Below are positions 8,088 to 33,750 of a stretch of 64,000 nt of DNA, in pieces (within the stretch, counting starts at the first letter, position 1; each line of letters opens with the position of its first letter). The notes under the pieces are model-generated. The model was not told the origin of the DNA and ran no database searches. It was given only the letters and a program-made list of their open reading frames with translations. The DNA lies in the IMG/VR virus record IMGVR_UViG_3300042539_001764, positions 4,094 through 68,093 of that record; one strand, 5' to 3'. A program made the position numbers and the translations under genes. Source of the stretch: a virus.

Positions 8088-10181
8088 ATGGCTGGTGTTC
8101 TTCAGCATCTGCGTTCATCAACGCTTAACAAGCGTCCTAATCCTGCTTCCATGGTTGATGGTCAATTGGCCATTAACTATGCCAGTGGCAGTCCTGGGGC
8201 ATATTTCAAGGACAGCAACGGTAACCTTGTAAAAGTGGGGCCTGTGCATGTAGGGAGTGGTGCTCCTAATGCAAGTCCTGCGAGTGGTGGCACTGCTGGC
8301 AATAGTCTTGGTGAGCAATGGCTCGATACCAGTGGTGGCACTTATGTATTTAAAATTTGGGACGGCAGTGCATGGCGTAGTGAAGCTGGTGAGTTTGTAA
8401 ACGTCACTGGCGATACAATGACTGGAGCATTGGGCGTTATTGCGGGCGATGCTTCTACTCCAGGATTATTTTTTAGCGGGGACGCAAATACTGGACTCTA
8501 CTCTCCCGGCGCAGACCAAGTAGCCATCAGCACTAATGGCACGGGCAGGCTTTACATAGCGGCGGATGGAAAAATTGGAGTGGGAGTTAGTAGCCCTAAT
8601 TTTTCCGCATCAATTTATGGAGCCACAAACAGCTACTCTCAATACATCAATGCCCTAAGCGGATCTACAAGTGGTGACGGGTTTTTAGTTGGACTAGACG
8701 AAGCCGGCAGTGCAGTTCTTAGGTACAGAGAAAGTGGAAGTTTAATTTTTTACACTTCTGATACTGAGCGCCTCCGCATCACCTCAACAGGGCTCGTAGG
8801 CATAGGGACTTCTAGCCCACAGGTTCTTCTTGACATTACAGATACAGGTAATCAACCCAAGCTGCGGCTAAGTACTAACACAGCTTCAAATTTTCTTGAA
8901 ATTAGCCGATCCTCCAGTACAGGTCATTACACTTTTGCGTCCGAAGAAAATGGATCCAGCATTATTTTTGCCACTGATCCCGATGGGACAGGTGCACAAA
9001 ACAGGGTCACGATAGATCGCTACGGGAAAGTAGGGATTGGCTCTACTGCGCCTGCAGACAAGCTATCCGTGGCAGGATCTTCTTCTGCAGATTTCAGAGC
9101 TTTAACGCTTAGAAACTCCAATGGCGCAACAGGTTCGGCCGCTGTTTTAACCTTTGAGGCATCTAGTGGGACAGAGGGTGATACTGGAGCAATCGCAAGC
9201 CAAATCAAAGGTGTACGAGACAATGTTGGAACAGCGGGTGGCCTTGAGTTTTGGACATCTAATTCAGGCACTCCGTATCAACGCGCCCGCATCGACAGCT
9301 CCGGCAGGTTGTTAGTTGGCACGTCTAGTGCGCGTCAAAGTAGCGGTGGTTTGCAGGTTGAGTCAACCGCTGGCAATTCTTTTGTAACGATTACAAGGAA
9401 CGATTCAGGGCCAAATGCACCGCAATTAAGTTTGCAAAAATCCCGTGGCACCGCCAACGGTCAGTTCACAGTAGTTAATTCAAACGATCAACTGGGCCAA
9501 ATAAACTTCAAAGGCGCGGACGGTACTGCTGACATTACGGCGGCCCAAATTCTTTCTGAAGTAGATGGCACCCCTGGCACCAACGACATGCCGGGCCGCT
9601 TAGTGTTCTCCACTACTGCGGACGGGGCGAGCAGCCCGACGGAGCGGATGAGGATCAGCAACACTGGCACAGTGCTCACATACAGCACAGATGATTGTAT
9701 TTCGGCCAGAGCTTCACAAGGAGCCGGGACAAGCTACTTCTTCTATAGGGGAATGCAAGGTGCATCCAGCACCACTGCAGGCGGCACTACTTCGTTTATT
9801 GTCTACACAAACGGGAATGTCCAGAACACTAATAATAGTTACGCGGGTATTTCTGACCTTAGGCTAAAAGAGAACATTGTTGACGCCACCTCGCAGTGGG
9901 CTGACATCAAAGCCCTTCAAGTTCGCAAGTACAACTTCAGGGAAGAAACAGGTCAACAGACCCACACTCAGATCGGCCTGATCGCCCAAGAGGTTGAACT
10001 TGTTTCCCCTGGCCTCGTCAGCGAATCACCTGACCGCGACGAAGACGGCAACGACCTTGGCACCGTCACCAAGAGCGTCAATTATTCCGTGCTCTACATG
10101 AAAGCCGTCAAGGCGTTGCAGGAAGCAATGGAGCGAATCGAAACCCTTGAGGCCGCCGTTGCAACTCTGCAAGGTTCGTAG
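8088..10181 (+). CDS. Tail fibre / receptor-binding protein with C-terminal S74-type intramolecular chaperone
   Basis: Repeated R.RI...G.VGIGT modules; SDLRLKENI...IGLIAQEVE...VNY...VKALQE chaperone signature. Confidence 0.85.
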   Translation: MAGVLQHLRSSTLNKRPNPASMVDGQLAINYASGSPGAYFKDSNGNLVKVGPVHVGSGAPNASPASGGTAGNSLGEQWLDTSGGTYVFKIWDGSAWRSEAGEFVNVTGDTMTGALGVIAGDASTPGLFFSGDANTGLYSPGADQVAISTNGTGRLYIAADGKIGVGVSSPNFSASIYGATNSYSQYINALSGSTSGDGFLVGLDEAGSAVLRYRESGSLIFYTSDTERLRITSTGLVGIGTSSPQVLLDITDTGNQPKLRLSTNTASNFLEISRSSSTGHYTFASEENGSSIIFATDPDGTGAQNRVTIDRYGKVGIGSTAPADKLSVAGSSSADFRALTLRNSNGATGSAAVLTFEASSGTEGDTGAIASQIKGVRDNVGTAGGLEFWTSNSGTPYQRARIDSSGRLLVGTSSARQSSGGLQVESTAGNSFVTITRNDSGPNAPQLSLQKSRGTANGQFTVVNSNDQLGQINFKGADGTADITAAQILSEVDGTPGTNDMPGRLVFSTTADGASSPTERMRISNTGTVLTYSTDDCISARASQGAGTSYFFYRGMQGASSTTAGGTTSFIVYTNGNVQNTNNSYAGISDLRLKENIVDATSQWADIKALQVRKYNFREETGQQTHTQIGLIAQEVELVSPGLVSESPDRDEDGNDLGTVTKSVNYSVLYMKAVKALQEAMERIETLEAAVATLQGS

Positions 10182-10278
10182 TCCCCTTCACTGCTGGTTT
10201 TGAGCAAGGCAACCCTGGCAGGCGCATTTTTTGTCAGCCAGACACGTTTTTGAGCAAAGCCAGTAGTCCACGTCTTGA
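8521..10278. repeat. TAG(T/G/C)-N7-(A/T)CT(A) inverted core sites in and after the tail fibre gene
   Basis: 8521 TAGCcatcagcACTA; 8797 TAGGcatagggACTT; 9031 TAGGgattggcTCTA; 9313 TAGTtggcacgTCTA; 9601 TAGTgttctccACTA; 10179 TAGTccccttcACTG; half-site at 10264 TAGTccacgtc. Confidence 0.7.
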
Positions 10279-10303
10279 CAAGGTCTAGCAAGAAGAGTAC
10301 CAT
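10275..10303 (+). promoter_or_regulatory. Sigma70-type promoter of the recombinase
   Basis: TTGACA-17 nt-TACCAT, 21 nt upstream of the ATG at 10325. Confidence 0.7.
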
Positions 10304-10324
10304 GAGTCTCCTCTTAAAACAACC

Positions 10325-11179
10325 ATGACAACCACTGTCTCAAGCCTTTGGAGCGCCTTCGTCGAAGAGCGCTCCATTTCTTTGTGTCCAACCAGCCTCA
10401 CTTCTGATTACAAACAAGTCAGTAAATGGCTGAATCGCTGTCCCATTCAAGACATTAACGATGCAAGAAAAGTGATGATTTGGGCGTTAGGAGAAAAGCC
10501 AGTACTCACTTCCAGGCGTGTAGCAATGTATATAAAGAGCATGTACCGATGGGCTGCGCAAGAAGACGTGGCCATTGTTGCTCGCAATCCGTTGGCAAGT
10601 TTTAAAATACCAAAGGCGCCACAACGCGAAGAGGAAATTGTTGTCATCCCTCGCAATGAGACGGCATTGGTTCTTGCCGCGCTAGAAGCCAAGCTCACCT
10701 ATCGAAATGTTAACTGGGCTTCGTACACGGAATTTATGCTTCAAACCGCAATGCGAACTGGTGAGGTGAGGGCAGCGAAATGGGACGACATCAAGGAGGG
10801 CAAGCTTTTGGTTCATCAAAACTATACTCTTACTCATGGACTAAAAAATAGTACAAAAACAAACAAACGTCGCTGGGTGCCTTTGAATAATCGTTGCCAA
10901 GAAATTCTTGCTGAGCTTCCTCGCGAAAATGAATTCATCTTCCCATGGAATCGACTAGCTTTTCAAAGCTATTTCAGAAAAAAGCTTTCGCCATTGCACG
11001 AAGCAGGATTGATTTCTCACGTTTATAGGCCTTACGATTGCCGACACACCGCCATTAGTCGCTGGATTGAAGCTGGCATTCCTGTACCGCAAGTGGCAAA
11101 TTGGGCGGGTAATACCAGTGAAGTGATTTTTAAACACTATTGCAATAGCACGCAAGAATATGAAATGCCAGTGCTGTAA
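10325..11179 (+). CDS. Tyrosine recombinase (integrase family)
   Basis: MRTGE (catalytic R), YDCRHT (HxxR-type), WAGN and KHY (catalytic Y); 284 aa with no obvious arm-binding domain. Confidence 0.9.
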   Translation: MTTTVSSLWSAFVEERSISLCPTSLTSDYKQVSKWLNRCPIQDINDARKVMIWALGEKPVLTSRRVAMYIKSMYRWAAQEDVAIVARNPLASFKIPKAPQREEEIVVIPRNETALVLAALEAKLTYRNVNWASYTEFMLQTAMRTGEVRAAKWDDIKEGKLLVHQNYTLTHGLKNSTKTNKRRWVPLNNRCQEILAELPRENEFIFPWNRLAFQSYFRKKLSPLHEAGLISHVYRPYDCRHTAISRWIEAGIPVPQVANWAGNTSEVIFKHYCNSTQEYEMPVL

Positions 11180-11245
11180 GTCGGTTTTCCGAAGAGACAG
11201 TTTTTCTTTCCATTGTTAAACTAACAAAGACCATTCTTTTAAATC

Positions 11246-11560
11246 ATGGCTATCACATACCAATGGGGCGTTGCTAATCTTGAGCGCCACCTTGCTGATG
11301 GAATCGTCTACACGGTTCACTATACGATTTCGGCCGATGATGGCACTTACGCTAGTTCGGCTTACGGGAGTCTTGGTCTTGAAGCTCCTGAAGAGGATGC
11401 TGCAATTCCTTATGCTCAGCTCACGCCGGAAATTGTCACTGGCTGGGTAAAAGACAAATTTGGCGCTGAGAAAGTGGCTGAAATTGAGGCCGCTCTCGCC
11501 GATCAAATTTCTCAACAGCGCACTCCCACTTCAGGAACCGGCTTGCCTTGGGCCAGTTAA
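11246..11560 (+). CDS. Tail-fibre-associated protein
   Basis: W...LER...VHY...IPY..LT...V.GWV...GLPW pattern typical of genes that follow S74 fibres. Confidence 0.6.
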   Translation: MAITYQWGVANLERHLADGIVYTVHYTISADDGTYASSAYGSLGLEAPEEDAAIPYAQLTPEIVTGWVKDKFGAEKVAEIEAALADQISQQRTPTSGTGLPWAS

Positions 11561-16503: not shown

Positions 16504-17013
16504 TTGTGGTCACGACAATTTAATAGTGCCATGCTTAGAGCGAATGGTCCCGATGAGTTGCTGCATTCTCTCATTGAACTTCGCCCTGGTGACGCAAAAC
16601 GTAGATTTCGCAAAAGCATCTTTGAGGATTATTTTTTAAGGGGACCATTAGGGCAATGCGCCTGTGCTTATTGCGGCAAATGGGGAGAAAAGCTTACGAT
16701 TGATCACATTGTCCCTAAGAGCAAAGGTGGTCCGCATTTTGCTAAGTGGAATATGATTCCTGCCTGTCAAAAATGCAATCTTGACAAGGGAAATCTTTCA
16801 CTTCTTGAATGGTGGCGTATGCAGCCATTCTGGACTGAGCGCAAAGAAGAAATGTTGATGGCATGGGTGTATTGCAATAGTTTTATCAGTGCTCATACCG
16901 ACCAGAAAGATCTTGAAGAATGGTGCGAAAAGAAAGGCCTGTCTTTGCCTGTGCATGAGAAAATTGAGCATGAAAAAGGCCCCTTATGGGGCCTTTGTGC
17001 TACTGCTGCTTAG
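16504..17013 (+). CDS. HNH endonuclease
   Basis: CAYCG...[12 protein letters not shown]...N..PAC..CN..KG. Confidence 0.85.
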
Positions 17014-27044: not shown

Positions 27045-27788
27045 ATGCCGCGTCCTGAAATTGAATTTACCACGCCTGAAGAAGAAGAGGCTTACGCAAG
27101 GAAGGCTTTAATTAAAGCAGGTGTTCCTGAAAGCCAATATGAAGCAGTAAGGAACTATGGCAATGGTAATGGCGTGGTTTATGCCAAGGAAATGCTTGGC
27201 GTGAGGCGATGGATGGTGCAAGAATTATTGGCTGCTTCAATGAGCAATCGCCAGATTGCGAATGTTCTAAAGCTAAGCAAAGAAACAGTTAATGCCGATC
27301 GCCATTTCAACAGAGCTTTATATACGCAAGAAATCCTGAAGAATCAAGATACGCACAGGGCGCGTCTCTTGAAAGAACAAATGGATCTTAAAGACTTGGC
27401 GCTTGATAGCTTTGAGAAAAGTAAGCGCAAGAAAGTTATCACCATTATGGACGGTGGTGACGATGGCGGGAAAGAAATGGTGAAGCTAGAAGAAAGTGCT
27501 GGTGATCCATCGTTCTTGAACGTGGCGAAAAACTCGCTGGTAGAGCAAGCAAAGCTGCTCGGTCTCAACGAGATCAAGCAAGTCGAAAGCCAAGACACCT
27601 CCTATCGGAAGTTCCTCAAAGACCTTTCCACCACCATTGAAAAAGAAAAAGAATCTAAAGCTACTGACGAACGGCGCAGCAACTCGCTATTGGCATCTGC
27701 TGAAACCATTAGCTTTGACCCGGAGCCTGAAAACGAGCCCCTTCCTGAAACCATGCCTTTAGAAACAATTAATCATGATGACTATTGA
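27045..27788 (+). CDS. HTH protein, candidate terminase small subunit
   Basis: HTH (MSNRQIANVLKLSKETV), helical core and GDP.FL...QAKLLGL motif common in TerS-like proteins. Confidence 0.55.
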   Translation: MPRPEIEFTTPEEEEAYARKALIKAGVPESQYEAVRNYGNGNGVVYAKEMLGVRRWMVQELLAASMSNRQIANVLKLSKETVNADRHFNRALYTQEILKNQDTHRARLLKEQMDLKDLALDSFEKSKRKKVITIMDGGDDGGKEMVKLEESAGDPSFLNVAKNSLVEQAKLLGLNEIKQVESQDTSYRKFLKDLSTTIEKEKESKATDERRSNSLLASAETISFDPEPENEPLPETMPLETINHDDY

Positions 27789-27835
27789 CAAGGCCGCCTA
27801 GCGGCGGCAAGCTATAACCACTGATTTTTCTCCCA

Positions 27836-28261
27836 TTGGAAGAATTTTCCTCCGTTAACGACTTTCTTCGGCAGGCAGTAGCCGCTAAGGACAGCAAGCG
27901 CCAAGCTATCAGCGCCTCTATCACGCCTGATCTACAAGATCATGGCATGGTTGGCATCCCGCCAAGACTCGCTAACACCTTGGAGAGCATGCTGCAAAGC
28001 TATGGCGATGAAGCCTATCGACAAGTGGCTCTCTTTTGTCTAGGCAAATGGTTTGAAATGCATATTGGCATGTTTGAAGAGCTCATTGGAGAGGAGCCCA
28101 GTATGGGCTGTAGTTGCCTGATGGATGCCACTCGCATTGCGGACTCCCTCCATCTCCTTTCTGAAATCAATAGCATTGGAGGCGACAAGGGGTGGAGGGA
28201 CATGCTGAGCGAAACGCTTAGTCAGCACATCCTTGAAGAGCTTGAAGAGGAGCGCTGGTAA
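27836..28261 (+). CDS. Hypothetical protein
   Basis: 141 aa, preceded by a TTGACA...TATAAC promoter-like sequence. Confidence 0.6.
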   Translation: MEEFSSVNDFLRQAVAAKDSKRQAISASITPDLQDHGMVGIPPRLANTLESMLQSYGDEAYRQVALFCLGKWFEMHIGMFEELIGEEPSMGCSCLMDATRIADSLHLLSEINSIGGDKGWRDMLSETLSQHILEELEEERW

Positions 28262-28428
28262 TGGCTGCTTGCCGTACGTATTTAATTACTACGTCTGAAG
28301 GAAAGAAAATCGCCCTGGGGGCGATTTCCGCAAAACAAGCTGAACACTTCATGCTTGTCATGCGTCCTGACATCAAGATTGCAATGGTTGAAGAAATTCC
28401 ACCACTTCCCGAAGACCCACAACTGTGA
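28261..28428 (+). CDS. Hypothetical protein (55 aa)
   Basis: Manual translation MAACRTYLITTSEGKKIALGAISAKQAEHF...; TAATG coupling. Confidence 0.5.
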   Translation: MAACRTYLITTSEGKKIALGAISAKQAEHFMLVMRPDIKIAMVEEIPPLPEDPQL

Positions 28429-28597
28429 TTTTTTCTTTCCATTGCACTGACACTACTGGCCACTTCCGTATTGGAGCTTTTTGTCTCCAATGGAGAAACA
28501 GTTTTATGCTTGGCACCATGTATGACGGCTTTGGTGAAAGCTGTTTAATACTCGGCTCTCGTTCCTTCCACTTCGGGCAATTTCGTTTCGCCTAATC

Positions 28598-29020
28598 ATG
28601 GACCTTCAGCTCTCTTTTATGGAAGAGCATTCCCTTCCTCGCATGGTACACATTTGCATTCCTCCGCAAATCCAAAAGGAAGTGGAGGCGTTGGCAATGG
28701 AAAATCCGCCCATCCATCCAGCATGGTGCAAAGCTCAAAAGCGTGGTAGGCATTTTGTCATCGCCACCAACGACCTTGACGACATTACGGAACTGGCTGA
28801 CTTTGCTCGTACTAACATCGAAGAGCCTGAAGAGCCAATGAGCAAGCCGAAGCGCCAGGCTTATCAAATCCTGCTGGACAGAGCATTCAGGCATGCCCAT
28901 CTGGAGCCTATGGGCACCTGTCATGCCATTGCTACCAAATGGCGAGACAAGCCCTTGCCATGCCAGAAGAACCTTAGTATTGCCACACAGGCTTTACGGC
29001 AGCCAGTCAGGCCTTTGTAA
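28598..29020 (+). CDS. Hypothetical protein
   Basis: 140 aa. Confidence 0.55.
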   Translation: MDLQLSFMEEHSLPRMVHICIPPQIQKEVEALAMENPPIHPAWCKAQKRGRHFVIATNDLDDITELADFARTNIEEPEEPMSKPKRQAYQILLDRAFRHAHLEPMGTCHAIATKWRDKPLPCQKNLSIATQALRQPVRPL

Positions 29021-29086
29021 CGATTTATGAATGGCCCCTTGATAGGGGCCTTTTTACTGGCACAATAAGCGAAGCAACGGCGAACG

Positions 29087-29443
29087 TTGCTAGTCCTCCG
29101 CTTTTCCACCGTGACCGTCAGATTCAACCATTTATTGCCAGGGCAGCCCGTTTCTGCGTTTAAAGACGGAGAATTGGCCATGAGCTTTGGGCAGCCCATG
29201 GTTTCTCGCTCCTTTTCCATGGCAGATTTGCAAGAATATATTTGCACTCTTGAAAAGGCCATTGAAGAAGAGCCTAATGTTGTACAACAACTAGCTCTTG
29301 ATCGTATTCGTTGTGCCTTTGTTGTAAGCCTGGACATTCTCAAGGAAAACCATGAGGAACTCTGCAAAGAAGCTCCTAGTGGCGCAGATTTTGAGGAATA
29401 TTTATTTTCTTATGCGCGTGCCATCAAAGGAGGAGCTCTTTGA
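29087..29443 (+). CDS. Hypothetical early protein
   Basis: Downstream of the promoter at 29014; likely GTG start near 29110. Confidence 0.5.
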   Translation: MLVLRFSTVTVRFNHLLPGQPVSAFKDGELAMSFGQPMVSRSFSMADLQEYICTLEKAIEEEPNVVQQLALDRIRCAFVVSLDILKENHEELCKEAPSGADFEEYLFSYARAIKGGAL

Positions 29444-29646
29444 TCATGGGATTTATTAAGAACCGTGAAGCAATTCGTGATTATGGCTACATTGAGCTTG
29501 GTATTGATTTTGGCAGGCGGATTACTGCTGAAGAAATCTTTGCCTTTGTAGAAGAAATTAGGGACAAAGTGGAAGGGCAAGCTGGCATTGATTATGCCGT
29601 AAGCTTGAAGACTATTGAACTTGACCATCCGCATAACTTGTCATGA
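29440..29646 (+). CDS. Hypothetical protein
   Basis: 68 aa, coupled to the upstream gene. Confidence 0.5.
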   Translation: MIMGFIKNREAIRDYGYIELGIDFGRRITAEEIFAFVEEIRDKVEGQAGIDYAVSLKTIELDHPHNLS

Positions 29647-29810
29647 TGGATGGAAATTATTTCGAGAATGATCCTTCTCTTGATTGGGAACAGGAAAAAC
29701 GCAGCTCTCGCCGTCTTGCAAGAGAAATGCTTGAACGTCGTTTAGCGTACTGGCGAGAAAAGCAAGAGCAGCTTTATTTAGAAATGTATCGTTCCGCCAC
29801 GAGTATTTAA
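29643..29810 (+). CDS. Hypothetical protein (55 aa)
   Basis: Manual translation; ATGA overlap. Confidence 0.45.
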   Translation: MMDGNYFENDPSLDWEQEKRSSRRLAREMLERRLAYWREKQEQLYLEMYRSATSI

Positions 29811-29813
29811 TTT

Positions 29814-30032
29814 TTGACAATGGAAAACAAAGAAATCATTCATCTTGCATACGAATATGCAGATTCATTTACAAGTGGCTTTATATTTAGCGAGGATAAT
29901 TTAATTGATTTTGCGAAGGCAATTTTAAATTATTCTGCAGCAATAAAGCCCCAGCCTTTTTATAAAGACGAATTCACTGAAAGCTACATTAAAGAGCTAG
30001 CAAGTTCTACACACTACGAGGTTCAACAATGA
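29814..30032 (+). CDS. Hypothetical protein
   Basis: 72 aa; IDFAKAIL motif. Confidence 0.5.
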   Translation: MTMENKEIIHLAYEYADSFTSGFIFSEDNLIDFAKAILNYSAAIKPQPFYKDEFTESYIKELASSTHYEVQQ

Positions 30033-30148
30033 CTCAAGAACACCCAATTACTCCGCCGCCTGAGCTACTCCGTCAGTGGCGCACGGACGCACAAGAGGTT
30101 TTGCCGAGTGATTCTTACTTTTACATCGCCACCCAAGCCGCCCGATGA
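30029..30148 (+). CDS. Short, possibly truncated protein MTQEHPITPPPELL... (39 aa)
   Basis: Manual translation; ATGA overlaps on both sides. Confidence 0.45.
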   Translation: MTQEHPITPPPELLRQWRTDAQEVLPSDSYFYIATQAAR

Positions 30149-30663
30149 CTGATTACACAGCAACGACCGATCAATGGGCCGACACGGAGCATTGGGCTCG
30201 GCACAACGGCAACGCTCAAGCTTGCATCCTTGAACTCCGCGCCAGAATCGAGGTGCTAGAAAATGCGGCTCAGAAGCACATCGTCGAAACCACTTCAAAC
30301 ATTCTTGCCTTATTTGGACGGGTTGAATCGTTAGAAGCTGCTGAACGCCAAACATCAACGGTCCACCAGATCAGCAAACCTCTGAAACTTACTGCAAAGC
30401 AGCAGGCAGAGTTAAAAGCATTGCTGACGCCCGATTTTAGGGTTGGCATGACGCCAACTTCTACTTCAAGCCAAGTTGGTAGTTCGCTAGTGGATGAGGT
30501 AGCCCGTGCCATTGGTCGAGACGATGAACCCATCAACTGGGAGGAAGAAGCCCGCGCTGCGATCCGCACGGTTGCCTTGTGGCTTAACGAAGCTCCGTTG
30601 CATCTTTACCCCGGTGATCGCGGCACCATTGTCAATACTCTTTATGACCAAGCGAATCAATGA
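30145..30663 (+). CDS. Hypothetical, apparently modular protein
   Basis: 172 aa; CILELRARIEVLE coiled segment plus EARAAIR.VA.WL segment. Confidence 0.6.
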   Translation: MTDYTATTDQWADTEHWARHNGNAQACILELRARIEVLENAAQKHIVETTSNILALFGRVESLEAAERQTSTVHQISKPLKLTAKQQAELKALLTPDFRVGMTPTSTSSQVGSSLVDEVARAIGRDDEPINWEEEARAAIRTVALWLNEAPLHLYPGDRGTIVNTLYDQANQ

Positions 30664-30842
30664 ATGACTTCAAATTTGTGCCACTGAACAGCCTTGAGAA
30701 TCGCCTCGGTGATGCCCTCGGCCTTGCCATTGCCATGATCCGCGACCCAAGCACCGTGGACAACAAAACCATGGCTCAGATAGAAGCACCATTCAAGGAA
30801 TGGTGCGATGGTCTCGTTGATGGAGGTCTATTCAATGACTGA
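30660..30842 (+). CDS. Hypothetical protein
   Basis: 60 aa; ATGA overlap. Confidence 0.55.
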   Translation: MNDFKFVPLNSLENRLGDALGLAIAMIRDPSTVDNKTMAQIEAPFKEWCDGLVDGGLFND

Positions 30843-30892
30843 CATCTTTCCGCCGTGCTCTTGAGTCCCTGCCCGATTAGTCAACATCACTA

Positions 30893-31069
30893 ATGACTGA
30901 CCAACAAATTATCCAGGCGGCACGCGAAGCCGGTCTTTGCTTTCCAACTTGTTGGAGCTTGATAGCCCCTTGGGATCCCACCAGAGACGTCAGCGACGAG
31001 TGGGGTGGCTACGAGCAAGGACAGATGGATAAGCTGCGCCACTTTGCTGAACTGATCAAAGCCTCCTAG
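30893..31069 (+). CDS. Cassette gene (58 aa)
   Basis: ATG directly after the ACTA arm; its stop TAG is the left arm of the next site. Confidence 0.6.
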   Translation: MTDQQIIQAAREAGLCFPTCWSLIAPWDPTRDVSDEWGGYEQGQMDKLRHFAELIKAS

Positions 31070-31086
31070 TCCACCTCGCTAAGACC

Positions 31087-31296
31087 ATGACTGAACTATC
31101 TCCCGCCGCGCAGGCGGTGTTGAAAGCAGCCTGCATCCACCACGGTTTATTCAACGAAGAAATCGTGCAGCGTCGTCGTATGGTTGCCGCCGTCCTGCGG
31201 GCTGCTGCGGATCAGGTGGTCATCAAACTGGCAGGGCTTGGACAAGAAAGCGCCTGGTATCTGGAAGAGATCGCCACCGAGCTTGAAGCCCAGTAG
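31087..31296 (+). CDS. Cassette gene (69 aa)
   Basis: MTELSPAAQAVL...AAVLRAAADQV...IATELEAQ; stop TAG lies within a site. Confidence 0.65.
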   Translation: MTELSPAAQAVLKAACIHHGLFNEEIVQRRRMVAAVLRAAADQVVIKLAGLGQESAWYLEEIATELEAQ

Positions 31297-31317
31297 TCCG
31301 ATCAACTAACCACCACC

Positions 31318-31503
31318 ATGACCTTACCAACCAACAGCATTATCTTTCGCGCAGGTCGTGTCCCCGATGAAGTCATCCGCATCGACGCCGAAGGCTTCCA
31401 CTACCGAGGCCAGTTCATTGAAGATGCAGGAGAAGCCCACCGCCTGCTGGTGGAGTTTCTACGCAAGCACCAGCCAGATACTGACTGGAAACACGCCAAG
31501 TAG
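31318..31503 (+). CDS. Cassette gene (61 aa)
   Basis: EGFHYRGQFIEDAGEAHRL; stop TAG lies within a site. Confidence 0.65.
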   Translation: MTLPTNSIIFRAGRVPDEVIRIDAEGFHYRGQFIEDAGEAHRLLVEFLRKHQPDTDWKHAK

Positions 31504-31573
31504 TCAGACCCACCTCTAGCTTTTTGCTAATTATCAGGATTTCCAATAAACGCCATTTATCAGGATTCTTGAT

Positions 31574-31600
31574 AAGGCCCCTTAAGGGGCCTTATTATTT
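31574..31600 (+). terminator. Hairpin terminator closing the cassette array
   Basis: AAGGCCCC-TTAA-GGGGCCTT-ATTATTT. Confidence 0.6.
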
Positions 31601-31789
31601 GTCCAAACCGTATCACCTGGCAATGGTTCAAGACCTACGTTCCAAGTATCAAAATCATCTTCGTTGCGAGGATCGTAAACTTCCCCGCTCGCCATCCATC
31701 GCTTAAGCCTTTCCCTTTCCTGCTCCGCAGAAAGCTTCATGATCGGCTAGCTCTGTATTGCCCGAGTCTAGCTAGCCCCGTATAAGCAA

Positions 31790-31996
31790 AAGAAAAGGGG
31801 CCTTGCGGCCCCCTCTCTTTACACCCTCCGATACCTCGCTTTCCCTTCAGTTACATAGGGAGATGACGCGCCTCGCGGGAGACCATGCCTAGCTCCCTGG
31901 CTAAGCCATACGGCTTTGCCCGCATCATCAGAAGTGTCCACCCTCACGGCTCGCCCGAAGACGAGAGCAGCAATTAAGCCGCTAGGACCGAGTGCT
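31790..31996 (-). ncRNA. Candidate stand-alone structured ncRNA (~200 nt)
   Basis: Own extended -10 (TGtTATGAT, 32010-32002), multiple stems including a UUCG loop, own terminator, no ORF in the track. Confidence 0.65.
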
Positions 31997-32107
31997 CAGA
32001 AATCATAACACGCCAGGTCCGTTCGGCAGCTCCCTGGAAATTCATGGCACAATGGGCATTGCGCTTCCAGAGATGGTTGCGCCCTCGCTAGCTCTCTCTC
32101 CTTCTTA

Positions 32108-32458
32108 ATGAAACGACTTTTTCTTTCCTTCCTGCTGCTCTGCCCCTTATCAGTGCAGGCAGCAACGCTCCAATGTGGCCGTGCATCTCACTACGGCATT
32201 GGCGATGGCTATCACGGGCAACGTGCTGCTAATGGTTCCCGCTTTGATGCCTATGCCCTCACTGCTGCCCACCCCTGGCTTCCATTTGGCACGAAAGTGC
32301 TTGTAAAGAACCGTAACAATGGAAAGGCCGTGGCGGTGACAATCACTGATAGAGGCCCTTACGCTCATGGGCGCATCCTCGATCTGTCTTACGGCAGCTT
32401 CTCTCGCATTGCTTCCCCTTCCCAAGGCGAAGCTTCCATCTGCATTTCCAAACTATGA
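32108..32458 (+). CDS. RlpA-like lytic transglycosylase (DPBB domain) with signal peptide
   Basis: G.AS.YG...ANG..FD...LTAAH..LPFGT...V.V.ITDRGP....RILDLS. Confidence 0.88.
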   Translation: MKRLFLSFLLLCPLSVQAATLQCGRASHYGIGDGYHGQRAANGSRFDAYALTAAHPWLPFGTKVLVKNRNNGKAVAVTITDRGPYAHGRILDLSYGSFSRIASPSQGEASICISKL

Positions 32459-32643
32459 AAGACGCTGCTTCGTTCCTGCTGGTGAGCATGGTCTTCGGAC
32501 TTGGTGCTTTCGCCATTGCTGCAGCCCCTCATGTGCAGCCAAACAAGGCAGGCCTTGACAAGTGCATGCAGCTTCACCCCGAACGCTACTGTCGCATTGC
32601 TAACGGCTTCCCCGTACCAAGGTTTGACACCCAGGCTAAATAG
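32455..32643 (+). CDS. Small membrane/secreted protein
   Basis: TM segment followed by C..LHPERYC. Confidence 0.5.
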   Translation: MKDAASFLLVSMVFGLGAFAIAAAPHVQPNKAGLDKCMQLHPERYCRIANGFPVPRFDTQAK

Positions 32644-32723
32644 CTCTATTATCCCCTCGGAATGTTCGCAAGGCCCTTCGGGGCCTGCTTCTTTCTTCGA
32701 TCCTCCGCTGGCGACAGCTCCTC

Positions 32724-33137
32724 ATGACTACCACCACCAAATCATCAGGGCATTTTCGCATCACGCAGAAAGCCCAAGAGCATCTCGGTCTGCAAGTGCT
32801 AAACGTGCTTCAGCACGTTGTAGTGATTCGCACTAACAAAGGCCCTCGTTTCGTCTCTCGCAAATACTATTTCGATGCATGGGAGATCGCCCAGCGTCGT
32901 TCACGCGCTCGTGGTTGCATCGCCCAGAAAAATGGCGAGCATTCCTGGCTGGTGTTTGATCCGCACACTGATAGCGATCACCACATTGTCATTCAGCATG
33001 GCATGAACACTGGCAAAGCTGGATATTATTCTTGCACTTGTGCTGATGCCTATTTTCAGCATGAGCGTGGCATTGAAGCTGATGCCATTCAATGCAAGCA
33101 CATCATTGCGGCTCAAATGTGGATGGAAAGGGCATGA
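32724..33137 (+). CDS. SWIM zinc-finger protein
   Basis: CTCAD...CKHI. Confidence 0.7.
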   Translation: MTTTTKSSGHFRITQKAQEHLGLQVLNVLQHVVVIRTNKGPRFVSRKYYFDAWEIAQRRSRARGCIAQKNGEHSWLVFDPHTDSDHHIVIQHGMNTGKAGYYSCTCADAYFQHERGIEADAIQCKHIIAAQMWMERA

Positions 33138-33349
33138 TGCGCTGGTTTCGTCGTCCCAATAGAAAGTCTGTCATTTCCAACAAAACTCGCGTGCTGTTGT
33201 CTCAGCATTTACGCCCAGAAGGAAGGCCGGTAGCAGAAGCCTTAATGGAAGAAGATGGCGTAATGCTTGAGCGTCTCTTTAATTACATTGGTGATCTGGA
33301 AGGTCGCATTAAAAGTCTGTCAATTTACATTCACTCTCGCAATCTTTGA
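33092..33349 (+). CDS. Hypothetical protein
   Basis: Likely start near 33134 (MMRWF...). Confidence 0.45.
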   Translation: MQAHHCGSNVDGKGMMRWFRRPNRKSVISNKTRVLLSQHLRPEGRPVAEALMEEDGVMLERLFNYIGDLEGRIKSLSIYIHSRNL

Positions 33350-33352
33350 ACC

Positions 33353-33559
33353 ATGCCTCTCACAACCACGCAACAGGCTATTGCCAGAATGGTTTCTGAC
33401 AATGCGAAGCACAAATGGAAAACTTACGATGCAAATGATCGCGCTTCTGCTCGCAGCTTCATTCTTTCTCGCATTGATAAACCCTCTTATAAAAGCAAGA
33501 AAGACTTACTCCTGACGCTTGCTGATGCCTTGCAAGATGAAATTTGGAAAGTGCTCTAG
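33353..33559 (+). CDS. Hypothetical protein
   Basis: 68 aa. Confidence 0.55.
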   Translation: MPLTTTQQAIARMVSDNAKHKWKTYDANDRASARSFILSRIDKPSYKSKKDLLLTLADALQDEIWKVL

Positions 33560-33750
33560 TGGCGCTTAAAGACAATAGGCGACAATTATTTGCGCTCGTT
33601 GAAAAGCATGGCTTTGCCTTGCATCGTCAAGGAAAGCATTATATTTTCAAGCATTTTTCAGGCAAAATGCTAGTGTGTAGCAAAAGCACAACAGACTGGC
33701 GAAGCTTAAAGAATGTAGAGCGTGATATTAAGCGAATCTTGTCTTTGTAA
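33559..33750 (+). CDS. HicA-like protein
   Basis: GF.L.RQGKH.IFKH..G...V.SKS..D.R..KN....IKR. Confidence 0.65.
   Translation: MALKDNRRQLFALVEKHGFALHRQGKHYIFKHFSGKMLVCSKSTTDWRSLKNVERDIKRILSL

What the first reader, a model, noticed from the sequence alone, without database searches (positions are those of the whole stretch)
30002..31515. Integron-like array of one-gene cassettes delimited by the same TAGT-N7-ACTA site
Seen: sites at 30002, 30878, 31067, 31294 and 31501. For three consecutive genes (30893-31069, 31087-31296, 31318-31503) the stop codon TAG is the left arm of a site, and each ATG lies 0-9 nt after the right arm of the preceding site. The four TAGT-type spacers all start with C; the one at 31067 (ccacctc) differs by one base from the half-site beside the recombinase (ccacgtc). 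Short fragments (MTDIFPPCS at about 30835 and the 39-aa ORF at 30029) look like scars. No promoter was seen within the cassettes; the nearest is at 29014, and the array ends at a terminator. Inference: the distant recombinase adds, removes or reorders early-gene cassettes.
Basis: partly seen in the sequence, partly recalled or inferred. Interest (0 to 1): 0.88.

Follow-up and report, generated by a model that had tools for sequence, protein, structure and literature searches.

The report
Conserved joints between shuffled phage genes
A freshwater cyanophage carries a row of tiny genes joined by a short stop-codon-overlapping sequence that recurs between unrelated genes in many other phages, marking where genes get swapped, most likely by ordinary recombination and not by an integron-like enzyme.

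Summary
The window is a 68-kb cyanosiphovirus contig related to Synechococcus phage S-CBS4.

The conserved unit is a 14-nt, G-poor element, TAG(T/C)C-N5-(C/A)ACT, whose TAG is the upstream gene's stop. A short linker and the next ATG follow it.

Homologues of the small genes lie in very different orders in 120 viral loci. Identical 14-mers sit between unrelated genes. Lake-metagenome contigs branch at these joints.

The integron mechanism is not supported:
- A tyrosine recombinase is found in 3 of 22 related long records; serine and Y1 enzymes in 0 of 23.
- The window's integrase gets only weak XerC/XerD scores.
- The sites do not fold.
- A gene does not keep its own site.
- Breakpoints also fall inside genes and at ATGA/ATGACTGA overlaps.

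Best reading: a Shine-Dalgarno-less stop-restart leader that also provides the homology for modular shuffling. The closest known cases are T4 PeSLs and mycobacteriophage start-associated sequences. I rate it a new variant of a known kind, of moderate interest.

The parts
29820..30032 (+). Small gene (70 aa) upstream of the array. It reads through the degenerate element and ends in an ATGA overlap with the next ORF.
30002..30016 (+). Degenerate element of the '..TCTACACACT' type (AAGTTCTACACACTA). The TAG is lost here, so it lies inside the ORF.
Evidence: The same core follows TAGT, TAGA or TAGC in relatives. Lake contigs join the sequence from 30006 onward to a different upstream stretch ending ..GAGTAGC (table 7).
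30029..30148 (+). Truncated N-terminal fragment (39 aa) of a roughly 110-125 aa 'HPITPPPE' family gene.
   Evidence: Matches phrog_32006 positions 2-40 of 116. Full-length relatives are 111 and 110 aa in G013.
30145..30663 (+). 172-aa gene that starts with ATGACTGA. It travels together with the next gene.
   Evidence: 86% and 85% identical neighbours in L004. One HSP spans 30136-30843 at 89.7% identity.
30660..30842 (+). 60-aa gene that ends in an ATGACTGA joint (30835-30842).
30843..30880 (+). Remnant of the 3' end (..TSFRRALESLPD*) of an 'HPITPPPE' family gene, left without its body.
   Evidence: Frame read. The same ending plus TAGTCAACATCACT follows intact genes in L004, L007/L008, L068, L102 and G013.
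30878..30891 (+). Junction element TAGTCAACATCACT; the next ATG is at 30893.
   Evidence: The same 14-mer appears in 6 unique contexts, with 6 upstream and 6 downstream clusters.
30893..31069 (+). 58-aa gene with no family match.
   Evidence: Six related loci carry different elements on both sides.
31067..31080 (+). Variant element TAGTCCACCTCGCT, followed by the linker AAGACC.
   Evidence: The left half resembles L019 (TAGTCCACCTCACC). The right part ..CTAAGACCATGACTGAA resembles L052.
31087..31296 (+). 69-aa gene of the multi-copy 'LSPAA..ELEAQ' family. It is internally mosaic, with a conserved patch at 31183-31220.
   Evidence: 67 related loci. HSPs cover 31087-31220 in some loci and 31186-31309 in others. 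Lake contigs break at 31184-31186 and 31217-31220.
31294..31307 (+). Junction element TAGTCCGATCAACT, followed by the linker AACCACCACC.
   Evidence: also present in G001, G002, G013, G014, G015. Seven unique contexts, with 5 upstream and 7 downstream clusters.
31318..31503 (+). 61-aa gene, the last of the array.
   Evidence: 47 related loci. Similarity to most relatives starts only near 31366.
31501..31514 (+). Terminal element TAGTCAGACCCACC; no gene follows it.
   Evidence: The same type (TAGTCAGACCCAC-T/C) precedes genes in L005, L019, L082 and L118.
31570..31597 (.). Palindromic hairpin with a U-rich tail between convergent genes; a likely two-way terminator.
   Evidence: -26.1 kcal/mol, z = -5.79, 0 of 200 shuffles fold as well.
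10179..10192 (+). Element TAGTCCCCTTCACT at the stop of the 697-aa tail-region ORF.
   Evidence: The same 14-mer occurs in G015 and L027 in unrelated contexts.
10264..10274 (+). Left part of an element (TAGTCCACGTC) at which the integrase segment begins.
   Evidence: G015 has the full TAGTCCACGTCACT followed by the sequence that in the window resumes at about 11184, after the integrase.
10325..11179 (+). Tyrosine recombinase (284 aa). It is cargo, not a partner of the array.
   Evidence: PF00589 match, E = 1.5e-13. Only weak XerC/XerD hits. Homologue in 3 of 22 relatives.

Best explanation
The five sites belong to a family of 14-nt intercistronic elements, TAG(T/C)C-N5-(C/A)ACT.

Shown: these elements, together with ATGA/ATGACTGA stop-start overlaps, form the joints of a co-directional array of small accessory genes. 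No promoter-like site lies within the array. It sits in a hypervariable region of an S-CBS4-like freshwater cyanosiphovirus. The element supplies the upstream gene's stop codon. With a linker and the first five or so codons of the next gene it forms a block of about 40 nt that is G-poor and has no Shine-Dalgarno sequence.

Inferred: the block is a translation stop-restart or initiation leader and is conserved for that reason. The same few blocks lie between unrelated genes in many phages, including phages with different capsid and recombination genes. They and the conserved gene ends therefore give the short homology at which general recombination swaps, deletes and inserts genes. That recombination could be the phage's own Sak/exonuclease where present, or host or other phage systems elsewhere. 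The integrase plays no part; it is a lysogeny cassette that itself sits at such a joint.
For: Real and non-random.
- With crude gene calls, 36 of 118 TAG stops followed by a gap of 0-40 nt read TAGTC, where about 7 would be expected at 1 in 16.
- 79 unique matches to TAG[TC]C-N5-[AC]ACT against 14-58 for 12 control triplets. 42 of the 79 lie at a called stop, against 0-1 for the controls.
- With ORF-defined junctions, 46 of 471 TAG junctions fit, against 4 of 482 TAA and 17 of 928 TGA.

Modular.
- Identical 14-mers have unrelated flanks (upstream/downstream clusters): TAGTCCGATCAACT 7 unique copies, 5/7; TAGTCAACATCACT 6 copies, 6/6; TAGTCATTACCACT 14 copies, 2/11.
N5 took only 10 forms: GCTTC 44, ATTAC 20, AACAT 8, and seven rarer ones. 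GCTTC follows 17 different upstream clusters.

Variable order.
- Close relatives keep both flanks but differ in the middle (L055, L117, L120).
- G014 matches the window through 30853-31072 and again from 31528; between those points the content differs.
- G013 has its own array of LSPAA paralogues separated by three elements.
- Contigs from four lake or freshwater runs branch at 30006, 30060-66, 30887-92, 31087, 31184-86, 31217-20 and 31298. Summed depth rises at the conserved bits.

Leader function (inferred).
- 0 of 34 element junctions have GGAG or GAGG at -17..-5, and the G fraction is 0.10. For overlap junctions the figures are 196 of 801 and 0.27.
- Among 32 unique GCTTC-type copies, the third positions of downstream codons 3-6 (the last is Pro; ATG and TCT are fixed by the search pattern) agree at 84-100%. 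Later third positions agree at 34-59%. So the nucleotide constraint ends about 17 nt into the ORF.

General recombination.
- Breakpoints also fall inside genes at conserved patches (31183-31220) and at start codons.
- The block, 34 nt or longer, is within the range recombineering enzymes use (recalled knowledge).
- The window encodes Sak and a PD-(D/E)XK nuclease.

No dedicated enzyme.
Against: No expression or translation data exist: the runs were held only as contigs. The leader function is therefore inference.

A pure initiation signal does not explain three things:
- why the stop is nearly always TAG;
- why N5 falls into a few discrete forms with almost no intermediates;
- why the element is confined to these arrays, and the recurrent 14-mers are absent from the searched 20000-69420 stretch of cultured S-CBS4.

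Sak is found in only 6 of 22 relatives, so no single phage recombination system accounts for the shuffling.

The loose 14-nt pattern is not more frequent genome-wide than its backwards control: 32 against 46 in 23 records. The signal lies in which 14-mers occur and where they sit.

All four records with a tyrosine recombinase (G000, G001, G007, G021) are among the 15 with a pattern match, and none is among the 8 without. By my own hand arithmetic this gives a one-sided p of about 0.15.

The loci were found through homologues of the window's genes and my ORF caller is crude, so the counts are biased and approximate.
Confidence: 0.55

Rival explanations
1. Site-specific cassette recombination, integron-like or lox-like. 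TAGT(C) and (C)ACTA would be the arms and the N5-7 spacer the crossover region, with spacer types acting as compatibility classes. A phage or host recombinase would insert, excise and reorder one-gene cassettes.
For: Identity is sharply limited to the 14-mer, with unrelated DNA on both sides. There are few discrete N5 classes. Relative to G014, the extra content in the window begins just after a shared TAGTCC, and the 31087-31296 unit lies between two TAGTCC copies at 31067 and 31294. The integrase segment begins inside an element. The four records with a tyrosine recombinase all carry elements. In G007 an element lies 316 nt beyond the integrase match, on the opposite strand.
Against: A tyrosine recombinase is in 3 of 22 relatives; resolvase and Y1 domains are in 0 of 23. 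The three integrases differ from one another: 65% and 27% identity to the window's, and the third is not detected with the window's protein as query. Arms of 4-5 bp are far shorter than known recombinase half-sites (recalled knowledge). No hairpin forms. The right arm is not palindromic with the left in a third of copies. Genes change elements on both sides. Breakpoints are equally common inside genes and at ATGA/ATGACTGA overlaps. Homology-dependent exchange predicts the same class pattern.
Confidence: 0.08
2. The element is the binding site of a phage or host regulator, protein or RNA. The model is the 13-bp stoperators of Cluster A or the start-associated sequences of Cluster K mycobacteriophages. 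On this reading shuffling at the sites is a by-product.
For: Short length, one orientation, restriction to the non-structural small-gene region, and association with genes of different families. These are the traits reported for SAS (passages of PMC3203893). Two conserved ends around a variable middle suit a two-part site. N5 is more constrained than neighbouring synonymous sites.
Against: There are only 0-4 copies per genome. No candidate binding protein is shared: the capsid gene, Sak and the integrase are each absent from most element-bearing records. Several quite different N5 forms coexist within one array. No Rfam family matches at the elements.
Confidence: 0.17
3. No function of its own. 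The elements are inherited spacers of tandemly duplicated gene units (the LSPAA and HPITPPPE families). They spread with those genes, and the apparent modularity comes from ordinary recombination within homologous genes.
For: The arrays hold paralogues. Two to three LSPAA genes lie side by side in G013, L011, L057 and L085. Some element types always follow the same gene ending, for example ..cacaccgccTAGTCATTACCACT.
Against: The same 14-mer follows gene families with unrelated endings and 17 upstream clusters for one type. It stays identical while adjacent third-codon positions are saturated. It is shared by records with no homologue of the window's capsid gene: G001, G004, G013, G020 and G021.
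Confidence: 0.12

Closest known systems
PeSL (promoter-early stem-loop) cassettes of T4-type phages (Arbiol et al. 2010, PMC2839356; Comeau et al. 2014, PMC4122927)
   Same: Both are short conserved intergenic sequences that flank small non-essential ORFs in hyperplastic regions. Insertions, deletions and replacements between relatives end in them. In PeSLs exchange is by homologous recombination between copies, and the flanking genes are otherwise unrelated. (I read the abstracts, and passages. For the window.)
   Different: PeSLs are composite sigma-70 promoters plus terminator stem-loops. Here there is no promoter-like site, no stem-loop and no Shine-Dalgarno sequence. The element is 14 nt long and overlaps the stop codon. 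Mini-circles were shown for PeSLs and could not be tested here.
Start-associated sequences (SAS) of Cluster K mycobacteriophages (Pope et al. 2011, PMC3203893)
   Same: SAS are a 13-bp asymmetric repeat in one orientation, found only in the non-structural half of the genome, a few bases upstream of start codons. They sometimes contain the upstream stop codon and are linked to genes of different families. Their function is unproven and a role in translation was proposed (passages).
   Different: SAS contain the AGGAG core and have one consensus. The present elements have no Shine-Dalgarno core (0 of 34), are anchored on the stop codon, come in about ten discrete variants, and are shared across phage lineages.
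Integron attC / IntI cassette system
   Same: Both have co-directional one-gene units with no promoter-like site seen inside the array, variable in order and content, each boundary marked by a short conserved motif.
   Different: There is no IntI-type enzyme next to the array. The sites are 14 nt long, whereas attC sites are folding inverted repeats of 57-141 nt (attC features recalled, not from a call). The site is not tied to its gene, and most relatives have no recombinase.
Relaxed homologous recombination by Rad52-like phage recombinases (De Paepe et al. 2014, PMC3945230)
   Same: The window encodes a Sak-type annealing protein and a PD-(D/E)XK nuclease. The paper links such enzymes to phage mosaicism.
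   Different: I saw only the title and the start of the abstract. Sak is absent from 16 of 22 related records, so it cannot be the general agent.

Membership tests
Integron | IntI-type tyrosine recombinase encoded next to the cassette array | tested here: not met
   The integrase lies about 20 kb from the array. It scores only 18-21 bits on XerC/XerD models, and no integron-integrase model is listed.
Integron | attC: an imperfect inverted repeat that folds as a single strand (feature recalled from knowledge) | tested here: not met
   35-nt stretches around four sites on the + strand and two on the - strand fold at 0 to -2.9 kcal/mol. Only 30868-30902 is mildly better than shuffles: z = -2.2 on the + strand and -1.6 on the - strand.
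Integron | Each cassette carries its own recombination site | tested here: not met
   Homologues of 30893-31069 are followed by CACCT, CGATC or AGACC types and preceded by AACAT, AGACC or CGATC types, or by none.
Integron | The motif co-occurs with the recombinase | tested here: not met
   Integrase homologue in 3 of 22 records. PF00589 in 3 of 22. Six records at least 90% complete carry recurrent 14-mers and have no such domain.
Integron | Promoterless co-directional cassettes in variable order | tested here: met
   No promoter-like site on the + strand between 29242 and 31569. Order is variable.
PeSL-type shuffling cassettes | Sigma-70-like early promoter within the element | tested here: not met
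PeSL-type shuffling cassettes | Terminator stem-loop within the element | tested here: not met
PeSL-type shuffling cassettes | Insertions, deletions and replacements between relatives end in the elements | tested here: met
   G014 against the window. Integrase insertion relative to G015. Contig branch points.
PeSL-type shuffling cassettes | Mini-circles formed by exchange between neighbouring elements | not testable with these tools
   Only assembled contigs were available.
Start-associated sequences (Cluster K) | Asymmetric repeat of about 13 bp, in one orientation, a few bases upstream of start codons in the non-structural region | tested here: met
   The stop-to-ATG gap is 12-28 nt, so the ATG lies 1-17 nt after the 14-mer. 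All matches in a record lie on one strand in 14 of the 15 records with a match.
Start-associated sequences (Cluster K) | Contains the Shine-Dalgarno core AGGAG | tested here: not met
   0 of 34
Stoperators (Cluster A) | Bound by the phage immunity repressor | not testable with these tools
   No repressor was identified. No protein tested is shared by the element-bearing records.

The most novel reading that the evidence does not exclude
Freshwater picocyanobacterial phages of several unrelated lineages share a common pool of one-gene cassettes joined by about ten discrete classes of a 14-nt element. The classes act as compatibility-typed exchange sites, like lox spacer variants, for a dedicated and still unidentified phage- or host-encoded recombination activity. 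That would be a virus-borne cassette system, functionally parallel to integrons but built differently.
Probability: 0.1. Interest if true: 0.85.

Novelty: new variant of a known kind. Interest (0 to 1): 0.5.

Why it matters
How phages gain and lose their many small genes of unknown function is still debated. One view is random illegitimate joining followed by selection; the other is exchange at conserved linker sequences.

This system gives a compact natural example of the second route, in uncultured freshwater cyanophages. The joints are identical 14-mers and can be followed across at least 80 viral contigs for one joint type alone. They also cross phage lineages that lack a homologue of the window's capsid gene.

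If the block proves to be a portable stop-restart signal without a Shine-Dalgarno sequence, it would also bear on translation initiation in cyanobacteria. It would be a handy part for polycistronic constructs.

My four library searches found no paper describing these elements.

Tried and rejected
1. Palindrome or hairpin reading. The folds are negligible. The base after (C/A)ACT is A in only 33 of 55 copies.

2. TAG read-through or gene fusion. The downstream ATG is in frame with the TAG in 15 of 46 junctions, which is the chance level.

3. A 'stops in all three frames' portable terminator. 12 of 46 junctions have stops in all three frames, against about 6 for a shuffled interior. This is too weak, and I dropped it.

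4. Known RNA families. There is nothing at the elements. The only hits are sub-threshold, at 29008-29055 and 31784-31926 on the - strand.

5. Pfam and PHROG functions for the array genes. Nothing above cut-off, apart from the fragment match to phrog_32006.

6. Prophage or host copies. No relative of 31087-31296 was found in 185,579 species genomes, so the host rests only on kinship with S-CBS4.

7. A DNA search of cultured phages with 29000-32000 gave one 63-nt hit, to S-EIVl.

8. My first element regex had one base too many. I corrected it. One search's loose regex was uninformative.

9. Genome-wide frequency of TAGTC-N5-MACT is not above the backwards control: 32 against 46.

10. Read laying 'skips' (for example 30891 to 31278) have 20-29-nt sides and 'between: not known'. 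I read them as contigs that share two conserved bits, not as deletions. Stretches of the window that runs X3 and X4 do not cover are no evidence.

11. RNA runs X19-X24 hold 0.05-0.08 of the words.

Full report
**What the window is.** It is bases 4094-68093 of a 68,093-base IMG/VR virus record rated 95% complete.
- It encodes a portal protein, a DUF2213 protein and a major capsid protein.
- It also encodes a tyrosine integrase (10325-11179), an endolysin, ThyX, a dCTP deaminase, a PD-(D/E)XK nuclease, a Sak annealing protein and an AAA_25-domain ATPase (S-CBS4's counterpart is annotated RecA-family ATPase), plus an HNH endonuclease.
- The portal protein is 66% identical to that of Synechococcus phage S-CBS4, and the gene order matches that phage.
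- Parts of 29000-32000 occur in lake, river and other freshwater metagenomes from 20 studies.

**The observation.** Exact TAGT-N7-ACTA occurs at 9601, 30878, 31294 and 32821, against 0.22 expected.
- 30002 and 31067 are one-mismatch matches. At that stringency the window is barely above chance: 19 against 11.3. 31501 is not a match.
- The statements about stops, ATG distances, the shared TAGTC and the TAGTCCACGTC beside the integrase are all correct.
- The two 'scars' are real. 30029-30148 is the first third of a family of about 116 aa (full-length copies). 30843-30880 is that family's last 12 codons plus its stop, in another frame.
- The genes 30145-30663 and 30660-30842 lie between the two remnants. 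The pair is bounded by an ATGA/ATGACTGA joint at each end and recurs as a pair in L004.
- A hairpin of -26.1 kcal/mol follows the array. No promoter-like site lies inside the array.

**What the motif really is.** I collected relatives of the three small genes: 47, 67 and 6 viral loci. I then read every stop and start context.
- The conserved unit is TAG(T/C)C-N5-(C/A)ACT.
- It comes in a few recurrent forms: TAGTCCGATCAACT, TAGTCAACATCACT, TAGTCAGACCCACT, TAGTCATTACCACT, TAGTCGCTTCCACT, TAGTCACCTTCACT, TAGTCCCCTTCACT, TAGTCCATCCCACT, TAGTCCTACTCACT and TAG(T/A/C)TCTACACACT.
- A linker follows that goes with the downstream gene: TCT before ATGTCTGAA.., AATCACCC before ATGACACAA.., and AACCACC or nothing before ATGAC...
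- The palindrome is a side effect. The base after ACT is A in 33 of 55 copies, and the conserved C at position 5 has no complementary partner.

**Is it more than chance?** Yes.
- TAGTC makes up 36 of 118 TAG stops before a short gap.
- The 14-nt pattern has 79 unique matches against 14-58 for control triplets. 42 of them lie at called stops, against 0-1 for the controls.
- 46 of 471 TAG junctions fit, against 4 of 482 TAA and 17 of 928 TGA.
- As a loose pattern it is not over-represented in whole genomes: 32 matches against 46 for the backwards control.
- The signal is that 26 of those 32 matches belong to eight 14-mers seen more than once, seven of them in two or more records. Matches sit on one strand in 14 of the 15 records that have any.

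**Modularity.**
- The same 14-mer has unrelated sequence on both sides.
- With the right-hand side fixed, a database scan hit the 80-locus limit. N5 took only ten forms, and three of them cover 72 of 83 matches. The commonest follows 17 different upstream clusters.
- Next to these identical elements, third-codon positions of the downstream gene are saturated at 34-59% agreement. The exception is the first few codons, at 84-100%.
- The conserved nucleotide block therefore runs from the TAG to about +17 of the next ORF, some 40 nt in all.

**Variable order.**
- Close relatives keep the flanks (27045-29810 and 31582-33750) and differ between them.
- G014 shares 30853-31072 with the window and then diverges just after TAGTCC. 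It has one LSPAA-family gene where the window has 31087-31296 and 31318-31503, and it rejoins the window at 31528.
- G013 shows no recombinase. Its array has three LSPAA-family genes followed by a fourth small gene, joined by TAGTCATTCCCACT, TAGTCACCTTCACT and TAGTCCGATCAACT. It also holds an intact copy of the arrangement that is scarred in the window.
- In four metagenome runs the contigs stop or branch at 30006, 30060-66, 30887-92, 31087, 31184-86, 31217-20, 31298 and 31505. Summed depth jumps at the conserved bits.
- These are assembled contigs, so they show alternative neighbours in natural populations. They do not show circles or events.

**The recombinase.**
- The integrase homologue is in 3 of 22 long related records. 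Any Phage_integrase domain is in 3 of 22. Resolvase and Y1 transposase domains are in 0 of 23.
- Six records at least 90% complete with recurrent elements have none of these.
- In fairness, all four integrase-bearing records, counting the window, are among the 15 with a pattern match, and none is among the 8 without. By my hand arithmetic p is about 0.15.
- The window's integrase is not of the integron type.
- Compared with G015, the integrase segment begins inside the element TAGTCCACGTC|ACT, and the shared sequence resumes 5 nt after the integrase's stop. The integrase is therefore cargo at a joint, not the engine.

**Mechanism.**
- The element junctions lack any Shine-Dalgarno core (0 of 34) and are G-poor (0.10).
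- Overlap junctions often embed GGAG in the upstream gene's last codons, for example ..CTGGAGCAACTCGATGACTGA.
- I infer that the block is a stop-restart or Shine-Dalgarno-independent initiation leader about the size of a ribosome footprint. That footprint comparison is recalled knowledge.
- Near-identical blocks of 34 nt or more, together with conserved gene starts, gene ends and internal patches (31183-31220), recur in many genomes. A single exchange within them swaps everything on one side; two exchanges move a cassette.
- The capsid-gene homologue is found in only 8 of 22 records and Sak in 6 of 22. The exchange pool therefore crosses phage lineages and cannot depend on one phage enzyme.

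**What stays unexplained.** Three points remain open: the near-exclusive use of TAG, the discreteness of N5, and the confinement of the elements to these arrays. The last includes the absence of the recurrent 14-mers from the searched 20000-69420 stretch of S-CBS4. These points keep a regulator-site reading and, less likely, a dedicated recombination system alive.

**Comparison with known systems.**
- In how it works it is closest to PeSL-mediated modular shuffling in T4-type phages, but it has no promoter or stem-loop.
- In form it is closest to the start-associated sequences of Cluster K mycobacteriophages, but it has no Shine-Dalgarno core and comes in several variants.
- It fails four of five integron features tested.
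- Four library searches found no description of it.

**Verdict.** This is a real, recurrent junction element that marks gene shuffling. The integron mechanism is not supported. I rate it a new variant of a known kind, interest 0.5.

**Limits.**
- The loci were gathered through homologues of the window's genes, which biases the sample.
- Gene calls are crude.
- The IMG/VR scan stopped at 80 loci.
- No raw reads were available.

Noticed in passing
window 10179-11290: The integrase gene is an insertion relative to G015. Both genomes have TAGTCCCCTTCACT and then TAGTCCACGTC. G015 has a 180-aa gene between them where the window has 71 nt containing two copies of GTTTTTGAGCAA. After the second element the window carries the integrase before the shared sequence resumes at about 11184.
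   Followed up: partly
window 9591-9655: A 50-65-nt island inside the variable tail-region ORF (8088-10181) is 89-94% identical in G014 and G015, while its flanks do not align. It contains the exact TAGT-N7-ACTA match at 9601. It may be a module joint inside a tail-fibre gene.
   Followed up: no
window 31183-31220: A 38-nt coding patch (..VAAVLRAAADQV..) recurs at 92-95% identity in many loci whose surrounding sequence is unrelated. Lake contigs break on both sides of it. So there is an intragenic exchange point in the LSPAA family.
   Followed up: partly
window 30029-31503: G+C is 53.6% here, against 45.8% for 27045-30028 and 47.4% for the whole window, and the GC skew turns negative. The cassette block looks compositionally foreign to its backbone.
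   Followed up: no
window 31741-32107: A 367-nt stretch has no ORF of 60 aa or more (the longest is 42 aa) and contains a GC-rich hairpin (31797-31812). It gives sub-threshold Rfam hits on the - strand: PrrB_RsmZ at 27.3 bits and ctRNA_p42d at 27.9 bits, both below the gathering scores. It could be a small RNA or only a terminator.
   Followed up: no
window 16504-17013: A free-standing HNH endonuclease (phrog_2214, E = 3e-24) lies between the lysis and nucleotide-metabolism genes, as in S-CBS4 (gp066). Such enzymes can create local recombination hot spots. I did not test any link to the elements.
   Followed up: no
L146 (S-CBS4) 27380-27393: One element-like sequence, TAGTCACTGCCACTAATCA, lies in the gap between two virion structural genes of S-CBS4. 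GGAGG and an ATG follow it. The regex as a whole matched at chance level: 7 seen against about 6 expected by my arithmetic.
   Followed up: no
window 27045-27788: This 247-aa protein matches the PHROG named 'Rnase E' (phrog_645, E = 2e-16) and, weakly, a GerE/LuxR helix-turn-helix domain. S-CBS4's gp086, in the matching gene-order position, is annotated 'Rnase E'; I did not compare the two directly. The name looks doubtful, and a DNA-binding regulator seems as likely.
   Followed up: no
G007 83-96 and 69845-69858: The same element, TAGTCGCTTCCACT, with the same flanks lies at both ends of a contig that is labelled linear. This suggests a terminal repeat or a circularly permuted assembly. The small-gene array there sits next to the integrase.
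   Followed up: no
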